Below the pieces are notes generated by a model. That model made no database searches. It had not been told where the DNA came from and was given only the letters and a program-made list of their open reading frames with translations. Position numbers and translations under genes: made by a program. 63,217 bases of DNA from Escherichia coli (lineage in GTDB: Bacteria; Pseudomonadota; Gammaproteobacteria; Enterobacterales; Enterobacteriaceae). Positions within the stretch are counted from its first letter, which is position 1. Each line of letters opens with the position of its first letter. The stretch lies in assembly GCF_003334255.1 (NCBI RefSeq), contig NZ_QOWU01000026.1. One strand, given 5' to 3'. Positions 54,201-57,053 of the stretch are shown one piece after another.

Positions 54201-54578
54201 ATGTCAGCAGCAACAAAATCGACACTGATCCGTACACTGAGCACTGTACCACTGAGAACAGAGGACCGTTACAGCTTTCTGGCTGATGTTGTAACGATCC
54301 TTAAGTCACAGGGGATGCATGTGGCAAGAGATGTCACCGTAAGAATCGATGGCAGAAATTTCCGTGTTGATATTCTCGCAACAGCAAAAACTGGTGGGAG
54401 TGTGGCTATCGAGATCGATCGTAGCTCTCCGCGACCCCGCTCAGTCATGAAATTGCGTGAATTGGCACGTCGTGGCACTGAAGGCTTTGTGTTGCTTCGA
54501 ATGCCAAAGAAACTGACCAGTTATAGCGATGCTGGGATCGATATCATCCCGGCGAATGGCAAGGGGGCGTCATGCTGA
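54201..54578 (+). CDS. Hypothetical protein, possible PD-(D/E)xK (DUF559/Vsr-like) fold
   Basis: 125 aa; ..VAIEIDRSSPRPRSVMKLRELARRGTEGFVLLRM.. resembles restriction-endonuclease-like core. Confidence 0.4.
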   Translation: MSAATKSTLIRTLSTVPLRTEDRYSFLADVVTILKSQGMHVARDVTVRIDGRNFRVDILATAKTGGSVAIEIDRSSPRPRSVMKLRELARRGTEGFVLLRMPKKLTSYSDAGIDIIPANGKGASC

Positions 54579-56092
54579 AAATCACCCCAAACTTTGCTCA
54601 GGAGCGCGGTTTAAACCAGCTGCGGCACCAGTGGAAACAGCATCGCACGTACCTGATGTATGCACCCACTGGCTCTGGCAAAACTGGTCTTGCAGCATTC
54701 GTCACTGCCGGAATGGTTGAACGTGGTATGCGGGTGATGTTTGTCTGTCCGTACACCATCCTGCTGAACCAGACAGCGGAACGTTTCACCGAATACGGTT
54801 TGCCGTGGGAAGAAATCAGTTTTGTATGGCGTGATCACCCTAACTATGACCCGTCACGACTGATTCAGATTGCCAGTGCCGACACGCTGATCCGTCGTGA
54901 GTTTCCTGACAACATCGATCTGCTGATCATCGATGAAGCACACATGAAGCGTCGTGCGTTACTTGAGGTTATCCGGGACAGAGACATCAGGGTTCTTGGA
55001 CTTTCCGGCACCCCGTTCGCAGCCTGGATGGGGAAGTACTACGAATGCCTGATCAAGCCTACAACGATTCGTGAACTTATTCAGCGTGGTGATCTGAGCG
55101 ATTACGAGTTTTTTGCCCCCTCAATGCCTGATCTGGCTGGCGTAAAAACCAGTAACACCGTATTTGGACGGGATTACAACGAGGAGCAGCTCGCATCCAT
55201 CATGGGGAGTTCGGATCTGGTTGGCGATATCGTTCGCAACTGGCTTGAGAATGGCGAGGATTTGCCGACGATCTGCTTCTGCGTGAATGTTGCGCATGCG
55301 AATTTTGTTACCCGTGAGTTTTTACAGGCCGGTATTGGTGCAGAGGTGATGACGGCAGATACCCTCCATGATGAACGACAGGACATCATTCGCCGTTTTG
55401 AAGAGGGCGCGACCAAAATAATTGTCAACGTTGGTGTACTGGTTGCGGGATTTGACAGCGATGTTCGCTGCCTGATCTACGCCCGTCCGACAAAATCAGA
55501 AATCCGTTGGTTGCAGTGCATAGGTAGAGCGTTACGTACAGCCCCAGGTAAAAAACGTGCGTTGATTTTTGACCATTCTGGTACGGTTCATCGGCTGGGC
55601 TTCCCCGAGGATATCGAGTATGACGAACTGCCGGGTAAAAATGACGGAATGAAAGCGTCTGCTGGCGGTGGCGAGGTTAAGGCTGAGAAACTTCCCAGAG
55701 AATGCCCCAAATGCCACTTCATGAAGCCTGCTGGTGTACACATGTGTCCCAAATGTGGGTTTCGTCCTCTTGGTGGCGATGATGTGGCAACAGACCGCGA
55801 TCGAAAACTCTCTCGCGTAAACAAAGGGAAACGCGAATACAGTCGCGAGGAAAAGCAGCGTTGGTGGAGTGAGATCAAGGGGTATCAGAATTACCGCAAC
55901 GCGACGGGTAAACCCCTGAGTGACGGATGGTGCGCTCATACCTACAAGGAGAAGTTCGGTGTGTGGCCTAAAGGCTTCAGTAATGCGCCGCTGCAAACCT
56001 CAGTTGAAGTGTACAACTTCATCAGGTCAAAGACCATTGCCTATGCCAAAGGGCGCAAGAAAGCCATGACAGGAGGCCAGCATGCAGACTAA
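54572..56092 (+). CDS. SF2 DEAD/DEAH-box helicase with C-terminal zinc ribbon
   Basis: 506 aa; Walker A APTGSGKT, motif II LIIDEAHM, CPKCHFMKPAGVHMCPKCGF. Confidence 0.8.
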   Translation: MLKITPNFAQERGLNQLRHQWKQHRTYLMYAPTGSGKTGLAAFVTAGMVERGMRVMFVCPYTILLNQTAERFTEYGLPWEEISFVWRDHPNYDPSRLIQIASADTLIRREFPDNIDLLIIDEAHMKRRALLEVIRDRDIRVLGLSGTPFAAWMGKYYECLIKPTTIRELIQRGDLSDYEFFAPSMPDLAGVKTSNTVFGRDYNEEQLASIMGSSDLVGDIVRNWLENGEDLPTICFCVNVAHANFVTREFLQAGIGAEVMTADTLHDERQDIIRRFEEGATKIIVNVGVLVAGFDSDVRCLIYARPTKSEIRWLQCIGRALRTAPGKKRALIFDHSGTVHRLGFPEDIEYDELPGKNDGMKASAGGGEVKAEKLPRECPKCHFMKPAGVHMCPKCGFRPLGGDDVATDRDRKLSRVNKGKREYSREEKQRWWSEIKGYQNYRNATGKPLSDGWCAHTYKEKFGVWPKGFSNAPLQTSVEVYNFIRSKTIAYAKGRKKAMTGGQHAD

Positions 56093-57053
56093 GAAGGCAG
56101 CGGCCGGGCATTGGGGGAGAATTTTTGAATATTACGGCATGCCTCCTGTTACTGGCTTGAAACATTATAGCGGCCCCTGCCCGATATGTGGTGCCAGAGG
56201 TAAATTTCGCTGTGATGATAAGGATGGTTCCGGTTCATGGATTTGTGTCTGTGGTCACGGGGACGGGATGAATCTGTTGCAACTTGCCACGGGTAAGCCC
56301 TGGGTGACGTTGTGTGATGAAATCGATCGGCTGATCGGAAATACCTGGAAGAGGGAGAAAGTCAGCCAGCCTGTAACAGAGATAAGCAGAAAGCGGGAGC
56401 TGGTCATAGATAAGTTTGCCGGACTCCCGTGTCTGCGGGGTACAACAGGTGAGGCGTACCTGCAGGGGAGGGGAATACTCCAGTTACCGACCGAATCCGT
56501 GCGTTTTTGTGACCGTCAGATCGCCAGCGGGCGCGAATATCAGGCAATTTACGCCATTGCAACAGATGACAAAGGTTCTCTTTGCTATCTGCATCGTACG
56601 TTGCTGGATGGTGATCGCAAGGCGAATGTAGAGGCGGCTAAAAAAATGACCGCGCTACAGGAGTTGCCTGGTTTGCAGCATGCCAAATCGGTGGCAATAC
56701 GCCTGTATCCGGTGTCGTCCACTCTGGGGATAGCCGAGGGTATCGAAACTGCGCTTTCATGCCGTCAAATCTTCCGCTGCAATGTGTGGTCAACAATGAA
56801 CTCCGGTTTTATGGAGAAGTTTATTGCGCCACCAGGCGTTAATCACCTGATTATCTTTGCAGACAATGATGAGCACGGCGCAGGTCTGGCGGCTGCCTTT
56901 AAATGTGGGCATAAGAATCTCATGAGTCGTAATGACGTTGAGAAGGTCAGCATTCGCTGGCCTGACTTGCCGGATTTTAACGACATGCTCATTCAGGGGT
57001 GTGAAGCCCGTGAACATGTGTTGACGCGCAAATTCAAAGCGGAGGCTGCCTGA
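56082..57053 (+). CDS. Phage primase-like protein (zinc-binding N-terminus plus Toprim-like domain)
   Basis: 323 aa; ..CPICGARGKFRCDDKDGSGSWICVCGH.. zinc motif; start overlaps helicase end. Confidence 0.65.
   Translation: MQTKKAAAGHWGRIFEYYGMPPVTGLKHYSGPCPICGARGKFRCDDKDGSGSWICVCGHGDGMNLLQLATGKPWVTLCDEIDRLIGNTWKREKVSQPVTEISRKRELVIDKFAGLPCLRGTTGEAYLQGRGILQLPTESVRFCDRQIASGREYQAIYAIATDDKGSLCYLHRTLLDGDRKANVEAAKKMTALQELPGLQHAKSVAIRLYPVSSTLGIAEGIETALSCRQIFRCNVWSTMNSGFMEKFIAPPGVNHLIIFADNDEHGAGLAAAFKCGHKNLMSRNDVEKVSIRWPDLPDFNDMLIQGCEAREHVLTRKFKAEAA

What the first reader, a model, noticed from the sequence alone, without database searches (positions are those of the whole stretch)
54201..57053. Replication module is helicase plus primase rather than lambda O/P
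An SF2 DEAH helicase with a zinc ribbon and a zinc-finger/Toprim-like primase follow a small PD-(D/E)xK-like ORF. This indicates a non-lambda replication strategy.
Basis: partly seen in the sequence, partly recalled or inferred. Interest (0 to 1): 0.25.

Follow-up and report, generated by a model that had tools for sequence, protein, structure and literature searches.

The report
Known helicase-primase prophage replication module
This E. coli prophage carries its own helicase and primase where phage lambda has its O and P replication genes; the arrangement was already described in 2021 as the "Eru1" replication unit of Shiga-toxin-type phages, so the finding is correct but not new.

Summary
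Three tightly packed + strand ORFs lie in the early-right operon of a prophage.

- **54201-54578 (125 aa):** a confident PD-(D/E)xK fold.
- **54572-56092 (506 aa):** an SF2 DEAH helicase with an invariant CxxC-x10-CxxC zinc ribbon.
- **56082-57053 (323 aa):** zinc ribbon + DUF7146 + Toprim. It aligns end to end with the primase domain of phage P4 alpha.

Lambda O, P and cII have no homologue in the window.

The region is 100% identical to Escherichia phage PhiR12_3 and about 96% identical to the O104:H4 outbreak phage. It is the published "Eru1" replication unit (Llarena 2021, PMC8044961), present in 153 of 5426 complete E. coli genomes.

Comparison with relatives adds three points.

- The conserved core is not the small nuclease-fold ORF. 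It is an unannotated 97-aa ORF (53699-53992), a conserved non-coding element (53993-54200), the helicase and the primase.
- The non-coding element has a twin G6 run that is unique in the window and a GGTTAGGTAGATC core. It is the best origin candidate. It has no iterons.
- The 125-aa ORF fills a variable slot. In relatives the slot is empty, holds an HNH endonuclease, or holds a winged-helix initiator. Its domain is also fused to O-like initiators elsewhere.

Function in replication has not been tested experimentally.

The parts
53699..53992 (+). 97-aa ORF ('orf97', phrog_852, function unknown), predicted three-helix bundle.
53993..54200 (.). Conserved non-coding element and best origin candidate. 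Sub-features: hairpin directly after the orf97 stop (about 53999-54033); twin G-run GGGGGGTTGGGGGG 54055-54068; palindrome TGGCCTAGGCCA 54097-54108; 21-mer GGTACATAGGTTAGGTAGATC 54116-54136; stretch of 62-68% A+T at 54125-54200.
   Evidence: Sequence. The 21-mer is exact in 41 IMG/VR loci from two lineages whose flanking proteins are only 42-67% identical. In loci found by helicase homology alone, the G-run and the GGTTARGTAGATC core recur at the same place. The twin G-run is the only such site on either strand of the 63-kb window. There are no iterons, no Rfam hit and no conserved RNA structure.
54201..54578 (+). 125-aa PD-(D/E)xK-fold protein ('p125', core domain of phrog_1347). It occupies a variable slot between the non-coding element and the helicase gene.
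54572..56092 (+). 506-aa SF2 DEAH helicase (Eru1A) with a zinc ribbon (C378, C381, C392, C395) and a conserved Trp-rich C-terminal domain (about 400-506).
   Evidence: The nearest solved relatives by sequence are RadD (1.2e-16), SauUSI-type helicase 7clg, XPB and UvsW. There is no DnaB, SF3 or MCM signal.
56082..57053 (+). 323-aa stand-alone P4-alpha-type primase (Eru1B): zinc ribbon C33/C36/C55/C57, DUF7146, and Toprim with E219 and D261-x-D263.
57053..57502 (+). 149-aa NinB/Orf-like protein (DUF1367), named 'Eru1C' in the literature. It adjoins the primase here but is not linked to the module in most relatives, so it is probably a recombination mediator and not a core replication part.
   Evidence: PHROG phrog_319 3.7e-62. 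PF07105 is recorded on the homologue in L046. It is absent next to the primase in L047-L051 and L054.

Best explanation
This is the replication-initiation module of a non-lambda ('Eru1'-type) temperate phage. After the cI repressor is lost, transcription from PR expresses cro, orf97, the optional nuclease-fold protein, the SF2 helicase and the primase.

The phage does not use an O-type initiator and a P-type loader to capture host DnaB. It brings its own DNA-opening motor and its own priming enzyme. The motor is an SF2 helicase with a zinc ribbon and a C-terminal domain, the same class as PriA, UL9, UvsW and RadD. It is not a ring helicase. The priming enzyme is the P4-alpha primase domain as a separate protein.

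The most likely site of action is the conserved non-coding element just upstream (53993-54200). Elongation must use host DNA polymerase III, because neither this part of the prophage nor a complete 37-kb relative encodes a polymerase.

**Shown here:** the domain identities, the absence of O/P, and the conserved set of orf97, non-coding element, helicase and primase.

**Inferred:** that these genes replicate the phage, where the origin lies, and whether host DnaB still drives the forks after initiation. I consider a role for host DnaB after initiation likely, because SF2 helicases are not known as fork helicases.
For: - Domain and motif evidence for the helicase and primase.
- The genes sit in the O/P slot between cro and ninB/ninG/Q.
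- No lambda O, P or cII homologue in the window.
- A complete 37-kb Klebsiella phage genome (L054) has orf97, the element, the helicase and the primase as its only recognisable replication genes. It has no O/P and no polymerase.
- orf97, helicase and primase are found together in Escherichia, Salmonella, Yersinia, Klebsiella, Photorhabdus, Proteus, Morganella and Vibrio phages, next to unrelated cI/cro genes.
- In two relatives the slot in front of the helicase holds a winged-helix replication-initiator-like protein with its own iterons. The whole block therefore behaves as a replication cassette.
- The literature places these genes as the Eru1 replication unit (PMC8044961).
Against: - No experiment shows that these proteins replicate the phage. 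The 2021 paper assigns function by position and domain only, and I found no later biochemical work.
- SF2 helicases are typically repair, restart or remodelling enzymes. The closest named family, RadD, is matched far below its cut-off (89 bits against 720).
- The window shows no classical origin signature: no iterons and no GATC cluster.
Confidence: 0.8

Rival explanations
1. The origin fires through transcription and needs no sequence-specific initiator. PR transcription across the twin G6 run, which lies on the non-template strand, leaves a stable R-loop or G-quadruplex. This would resemble ColE1 RNA II or the mitochondrial CSB II element. The SF2 helicase enlarges the bubble, the primase primes the displaced strand, and the host restart pathway (PriA) loads DnaB.
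For: - The G-run is unique in 63 kb and always lies on the coding strand, downstream of PR and upstream of the helicase, in 6 of 8 independently found lineages.
- The window has no iterons and no winged-helix initiator.
- The helicase's detectable solved relatives include UvsW, which acts on branched DNA and R-loops. RecG is matched only faintly among NCBIfam families.
- The element has conserved sequence motifs but no conserved RNA fold.
Against: - This is inference from sequence only.
- orf97 could be an unrecognised origin-binding initiator.
- The invariant GGTTAGGTAGATC core looks like a protein-binding site, which an initiator-free model does not need.
- Two lineages (L051, L004) lack the G-run.
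Confidence: 0.2
2. orf97, possibly helped by the helicase C-terminal domain, is the sequence-specific initiator. It binds the conserved CCARNAGAC-N8-10-GGTTARGTAGATC motif and recruits the helicase and primase. This would be an O-like role in an unrelated fold.
For: - orf97 is the only small protein that always accompanies the helicase-primase pair and the element.
- It has a conserved basic helix, R56-K57-x-N59-x-x-R62...N66-x-R68-x-R70.
- The DNA motif is conserved as primary sequence.
Against: - orf97 has no detectable DNA-binding domain. Its fold matches are non-specific.
- The motif occurs once, not as repeats.
- orf97 lies upstream of a terminator-like hairpin (a canonical terminator in L004), so it may belong to the regulatory unit instead.
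Confidence: 0.3
3. The 125-aa PD-(D/E)xK ORF is a free-standing, homing-endonuclease-like selfish gene, or a defence-related one, that landed in an intergenic hot spot. It plays no part in replication.
For: - The slot is empty in L017, L050 and L054 and holds an HNH homing endonuclease in L010, L041 and L023.
- p125 diverges much faster than its neighbours: 33-42% identity against 67-81% for the helicase.
- The acidic residues of the putative active site are conserved, as expected of an active nuclease.
Against: - The same domain is fused in frame to at least four different replication-initiator architectures.
- In the window it overlaps the helicase start by 7 nt, which suggests coupled translation.
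- Its only PADLOC match is weak (E=0.0033).
Confidence: 0.45
4. The helicase and primase are not replication proteins. They form a repair, recombination or anti-defence accessory pair, and the true replication functions lie elsewhere in the prophage.
For: - The SF2 core also gives partial matches to restriction and defence helicases (mREase_IV, PbeA, DpdF, Cas3).
- The window covers only the left 25 kb or so of the prophage.
Against: - The PADLOC matches are generic SF2-core hits, and the primase has none.
- A complete relative (L054) has no other replication genes.
- The module sits in the O/P position, and a dedicated primase has no obvious role in defence.
Confidence: 0.05

Closest known systems
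Eru1 replication unit of Stx phages (TL-2011c, P13374/O104:H4; Llarena et al. 2021, PMC8044961)
   Same: The same genes: a 506-aa DEAH helicase, a 323-aa Toprim protein and a 149-aa DUF1367 protein. Identity is about 96% across the 6.1-kb cI-to-Q region, and the small ORF is 96% identical to that of TL-2011c.
   Different: This prophage carries no stx. A BcgI-like methyltransferase gene sits downstream of Q instead. The published definition omits orf97, the 125-aa ORF and any origin, and it includes the NinB-like gene, which is not linked to the module in other lineages.
Phage P4 alpha protein (primase + SF3 helicase + origin-binding domain in one chain)
   Same: The primase is homologous over its whole length to the alpha primase domain, with the same zinc motif, Toprim glutamate and DxD. 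Like P4, the phage supplies its own priming and unwinding functions.
   Different: The primase is a separate protein here. The helicase is SF2, not SF3. There is no alpha-type origin-binding domain and there are no P4-type ori repeats.
IncQ plasmid RSF1010 RepA/RepB'/RepC (own helicase, own primase, initiator); comparison from my own knowledge
   Same: The logic is the same: a mobile replicon brings its own helicase and primase and so needs little from the host initiation proteins.
   Different: RepA is a hexameric helicase, RepB' is not a Toprim primase, and RepC binds iterons. There is no sequence relationship. The resemblance is in how it works and is untested.
SF2 initiator and restart helicases: E. 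coli PriA, herpesvirus UL9, T4 UvsW, E. coli RadD; functional comparison from my own knowledge
   Same: An SF2 core combined with a zinc-binding module and a C-terminal domain. RadD, XPB and UvsW are the detectable solved relatives.
   Different: It is an orthologue of none of them. RadD scores 89 bits against a cut-off of 720 and RecG about 21 bits. The C-terminal domain is unrelated.
Lambda O/P with ori-lambda iterons inside O
   Same: Same genome position and same control by PR and cI.
   Different: No sequence homology, no iterons, and no DnaB loader.

Membership tests
Eru1 phage replication unit (PMC8044961) | eru1A-C homologues with more than 80% coverage and more than 80% nucleotide identity to TL-2011c | tested here: met
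   The 6.1-kb region is 95.5-96.9% identical over 99% of its length to P13374, VT2phi_272, PA2 and Ss-VASD. TL-2011c itself matches p125 at 96% amino-acid identity and the intergenic element at 92.3%. Protein lengths of 506, 323 and 149 aa equal those published.
SF2 helicase | Two RecA-like domains carrying motifs I, II (DEAH), III and VI | tested here: met
   Pfam ResIII, DEAD and Helicase_C. GSGKT 34-38, DEAH 121-124, SGT 145-147, QCIGRALR 315-322.
SF2 helicase | ATP-dependent DNA unwinding or translocation | not testable with these tools
   Needs purified protein.
Ring-shaped replicative helicases (DnaB/SF4, SF3, MCM) | DnaB_C/RecA-type SF4 core, or an SF3 or AAA+ core | tested here: not met
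   No such Pfam, PHROG or NCBIfam hit. All significant hits are SF2.
RadD (YejH) | Score above the NCBIfam equivalog cut-off (720 bits) | tested here: not met
   89.3 bits. The PDB RadD match covers only residues 234-346.
Toprim primases of the P4-alpha / T7 gp4 / DnaG kind | N-terminal Cys4-type zinc-binding domain | tested here: met
   Zn_Ribbon_Prim 2e-14. CPIC...CVC at 33-57 aligns with the P4 alpha motif.
Toprim primases of the P4-alpha / T7 gp4 / DnaG kind | Toprim domain with the catalytic Glu and the DxD metal site | tested here: met
   Toprim_3 1.1e-10. EGIETA 219-224 aligns with P4 EGYATA, and DND 261-263 with P4 DRD.
Toprim primases of the P4-alpha / T7 gp4 / DnaG kind | Template-directed RNA primer synthesis | not testable with these tools
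   Needs a biochemical assay. No solved structure is related by sequence.
PD-(D/E)xK nuclease superfamily (125-aa ORF) | alpha-beta-beta-beta-alpha-beta core fold | tested here: met
PD-(D/E)xK nuclease superfamily (125-aa ORF) | Catalytic D...(D/E)xK signature | tested here: inconclusive
   D57 lies on strand 2 and E71-x-D73 on strand 3. Both are invariant or nearly so. The canonical Lys position is not kept (DRS here). An invariant K84 lies on the next helix. This is compatible with a variant active site, but activity is untested.
Lambda-type O/P replication module | Homologues of the O initiator and the P loader, with iterons inside O | tested here: not met
   tblastn best E is 0.13 for O and 1.0 for P, at unrelated places. 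No iterons.
Iteron-type replication origin | Three or more direct repeats of about 10-22 bp next to an AT-rich stretch | tested here: not met
   No repeat family in 53980-54600 beyond two-copy 10-mers. A+T reaches only 62-68% at 54125-54200. Relatives L004 and L051 do have iterons, together with a winged-helix protein.

The most novel reading that the evidence does not exclude
The conserved unit of orf97, a twin-G6/GGTTAGGTAGATC element, an SF2 helicase and a P4-type primase may be an origin system of a kind not yet described. In it, firing would depend on transcription forming an R-loop or G-quadruplex at the G-run, as at mitochondrial CSB II or in ColE1, and not on an iteron-binding initiator. 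Separately, the PD-(D/E)xK domain of phrog_1347 may be an unrecognised catalytic accessory of phage initiators that nicks or processes origin DNA. It occurs free-standing here and is inserted into O-like, DUF1376 and other initiators elsewhere.
Probability: 0.15. Interest if true: 0.6.

Novelty: already known. Interest (0 to 1): 0.25.

Why it matters
Eru1-type phages include the Stx2a phages of the 2011 O104:H4 and 2006 O103:H25 outbreaks. They are reported to be far less stable as lysogens than lambdoid Stx phages (PMC8044961). How they replicate therefore bears on toxin dose and on possible anti-virulence targets.

The module has been named, but its origin, its initiator and its dependence on host DnaB, DnaC and DnaG are unknown. 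This analysis narrows what needs testing to a 3.4-kb cassette and a 208-bp non-coding element. It also shows that the published gene set is probably wrong at both ends. orf97 and the non-coding element belong to the unit. The NinB-like 'Eru1C' and the nuclease-fold ORF are not constant parts of it.

Tried and rejected
- **Iterons.** Repeat searches of 53300-57200 and 53980-54600 gave only short two-copy matches.
- **CACTG(A) cluster.** Four copies lie at 54223-54254 in the 5' end of the small ORF. The cluster is absent from the phi467-type lineage, so I do not treat it as an origin repeat.
- **GATC clustering**, as at oriC or P1 oriR: none.
- **Promoter/terminator scan.** Counts are no higher than in shuffled sequence. 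Only PR (53412-53440) is convincing.
- **Rfam at E<=1.** Nothing in the element.
- **Conserved RNA structure** (a put-like antiterminator). RNAalifold gave -3.3 kcal/mol with negligible covariation. A GCGAAGC-type mini-hairpin with compensatory changes exists only within the phi467-type sublineage.
- **Primase against PDB by sequence.** No hit.
- **Word-index homologue search for the small ORF.** It found only near-identical E. coli proteins. The exhaustive representative search was needed to find the wider family.
- **PADLOC.** Only generic SF2 matches for the helicase and nothing for the primase, so I rejected a defence-system reading.
- **Plasmid collection.** Matches of 37-42 kb are whole phage genomes that carry an integrase, not minimal replicons. 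They do not prove autonomous replication.
- **Cumulative GC skew.** Uninformative at this scale.
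Full report
**What is there.** The window is E. coli chromosome up to about 37.7 kb. From there to its end it holds the left arm of a prophage. 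The stretch 52600-58700 is 100% identical to Escherichia phage PhiR12_3 from strain ECOR13. It is 95.5-96.9% identical to a large group of Stx-type phages: Ss-VASD, P13374 from O104:H4, VT2phi_272, PA2 and ArgO145. The gene order is that of a lambdoid early-right operon:

- cI (52656-53369, minus strand)
- PR and cro
- a 97-aa ORF (53699-53992)
- a 208-bp gap
- NinB-like, NinG, NinH and Q

**Checking the observation.** All three assignments hold.

- *Helicase.* The 506-aa protein is an SF2 helicase: Pfam ResIII, DEAD and Helicase_C and phrog_16 at 2.4e-110. It has GSGKT, DEAH, SGT and QxxGRxxR motifs and a CPKC-x10-CPKC zinc ribbon at 378-395. The four cysteines, and a Trp-rich C-terminal domain, are invariant across ten lineages down to 58% identity.
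- *Primase.* The 323-aa protein has Zn_Ribbon_Prim, DUF7146 and Toprim_3 and matches phrog_510 'DNA primase' at 2.6e-139. It aligns from residue 3 to 309 with residues 8-302 of phage P4 alpha, the N-terminal part known as that protein's primase domain (my own knowledge). The alignment covers the zinc motif, the EGxxTA glutamate and the DxD site.

**Checking the interpretation.** Lambda O, P and cII give no tblastn match in the window. The module is the published 'Eru1' unit. Llarena et al. (PMC8044961) named the 506-aa DEAH helicase eru1A, the 323-aa Toprim protein eru1B and the 149-aa DUF1367 protein eru1C. They did so because these genes replace O and P in TL-2011c and in the O104:H4 phage. 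A follow-up paper typed 419 Stx phages in this way. The same DNA is present in 153 of 5426 complete E. coli genomes, always on the chromosome. Neither paper reports an origin, the two upstream ORFs or any biochemistry.

**What the comparison with relatives adds.** I collected relatives in two independent ways. One was an exact 21-mer from the gap, which gave 41 IMG/VR loci. The other was helicase homology: six genomic loci, one Vibrio phage and one complete 37-kb Klebsiella phage. Four points follow.

1. *orf97 is a constant partner.* A homologue (39-76% identity) precedes the helicase in every case, including the Vibrio phage, while cI and cro vary freely. It belongs to the unit. Its function is unknown: it has no family match, and the predicted three-helix bundle gives only non-specific fold hits.
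2. *The NinB-like 'Eru1C' is not a constant partner.* It is missing next to the primase in most lineages.
3. *The 125-aa ORF fills a variable slot.*
   - The slot holds a homologue of only 33-42% identity in phi467-type phages and in the Salmonella, Yersinia and Klebsiella loci.
   - It is empty in L017, L050 and L054.
   - It holds a 54-aa ORF in L049 and an HNH homing endonuclease in L010, L041 and L023.
   - It holds a winged-helix, initiator-like protein preceded by iterons (ACGACAGAACCTGTCGC) in the Vibrio and Morganella relatives.
4. *The same nuclease-fold domain is tied to initiators elsewhere.* It keeps D57, E71, D73, R78, S81 and K84. It is fused in frame to Phage_rep_O, DUF1376, DUF6291 and Phg_2220_C replication-initiator domains in other phages. 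One example is a 390-aa O-like protein of a Providencia phage that is followed by a gene annotated 'DNA helicase', probably DnaB-type. The domain is thus repeatedly associated with replication initiators, yet it is dispensable for this module. I cannot decide between an accessory origin-processing nuclease and a selfish endonuclease.

**Origin candidate.** There are no iterons. A+T reaches only 62-68% at 54125-54200. However, the gap is conserved far better than the proteins around it.

- The 21-mer GGTACATAGGTTAGGTAGATC (54116-54136) is exact in lineages whose small ORF is 42% and whose helicase is 67% identical.
- In loci found without using that motif, the core GGTTARGTAGATC, a preceding CCARNAGAC and an upstream twin G-run recur in the same order.
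- The twin G-run (GGGGGGTTGGGGGG, 54055-54068) is the only G>=5-N1-4-G>=5 site on either strand of the whole window. It is likewise single and in the same position in the relatives.
- It always lies on the non-template strand for PR transcription.
- No Rfam family matches. RNAalifold finds no shared structure. The signal therefore lies in the sequence itself, not in a folded RNA.

This is the best origin candidate. It could instead be a regulatory site.

**How it most likely works.** The phage supplies its own opening and priming functions and does not recruit host DnaB through O/P. Two steps are inferred.

- The helicase is of the SF2 kind. Its detectable solved relatives are RadD, XPB and UvsW, and it is an orthologue of none. 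By analogy with PriA and UL9 (my own knowledge), it probably acts as an initiator or remodelling helicase at the upstream element. It is unlikely to be the fork helicase.
- The primase then lays the first primers. Host Pol III, and perhaps host DnaB loaded through the restart pathway, carries out elongation.

A transcription-dependent R-loop at the G-run is an attractive way to do without a sequence-specific initiator, but it is speculation (about 0.2). orf97 as an unrecognised initiator is a comparable alternative (about 0.3).

**Verdict.** The feature is a known kind and a known member of it (Eru1). Interest is low to moderate. What remains of value is that the mechanism and origin of a medically relevant phage replication type are still untested, and that the conserved unit appears to differ from the published gene set.

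Noticed in passing
window 58719-59043: A hok/sok type I toxin-antitoxin locus lies just downstream of Q: sok RNA (Rfam RF01794, 118 bits) and a 51-aa Hok-family toxin ORF at 58888-59043 (NCBIfam 1.1e-13).
   Followed up: partly
window 59227-59303: A perfect tandem array of 11 copies of the heptamer GACCAGC lies about 90 nt upstream of the BcgI-like methyltransferase ORF. The unit length is not a multiple of three, so it could act as a phase-variation switch.
   Followed up: no
window 59394-62509: A 653-aa BcgI-alpha-like / N6-adenine methyltransferase-type protein (hsdM-like 2.7e-9, MADS2-like 4.7e-6, both far below their cut-offs) is followed by a 364-aa ORF with no family match. They sit downstream of Q, where Stx phages carry stx.
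   Followed up: partly
window 1-37700: The first 37.7 kb or so is host chromosome with almost no phage matches. The prophage, integrase end first, starts near 37.7 kb, and the window ends inside it.
   Followed up: partly
window 52124-52426 (minus strand): A 100-aa ORF between the PL region and cI is annotated as a 'type II restriction enzyme BsuBI' fragment in PhiR12_3. It has no NCBIfam match.
   Followed up: no
L049 3606-3615 and 3766-3775; L050 3778-3797 and 3931-3950; also L010 and L047: In relatives that lack the 125-aa ORF, a 10-bp palindrome TAGACGTCTA (or a near copy) flanks the G-run element on one or both sides, 150-160 nt apart. It may be a binding site. It was not seen in the intergenic sequence of the window.
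   Followed up: no
L004 4436-4561 and L051 3498-3538: Vibrio and Morganella relatives carry iterons (ACGACAGAACCTGTCGC, 2-3 copies) in front of a small winged-helix, initiator-like ORF in the slot before the helicase. In L004 a canonical terminator follows the orf97 homologue.
   Followed up: partly
L003 about 4862-4880 and equivalents in L010, L017, L048: A GCGAAGC-type mini-hairpin (AGTGCGAAGCACT) lies between the G-run and the 21-mer in phi467-type phages. Variants carry compensatory changes (AGCGCGAAGCGCT, CCGCGGAGCGG). The Eru1-type window has the palindrome TGGCCTAGGCCA there instead.
   Followed up: partly
window 54572-56092, residues about 400-506: The helicase ends in a conserved Trp-rich domain (KQxWWS...DGW..H.YK.KFG.WP.G) with no family assignment. 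It is a candidate DNA-binding or primase-binding domain.
   Followed up: no
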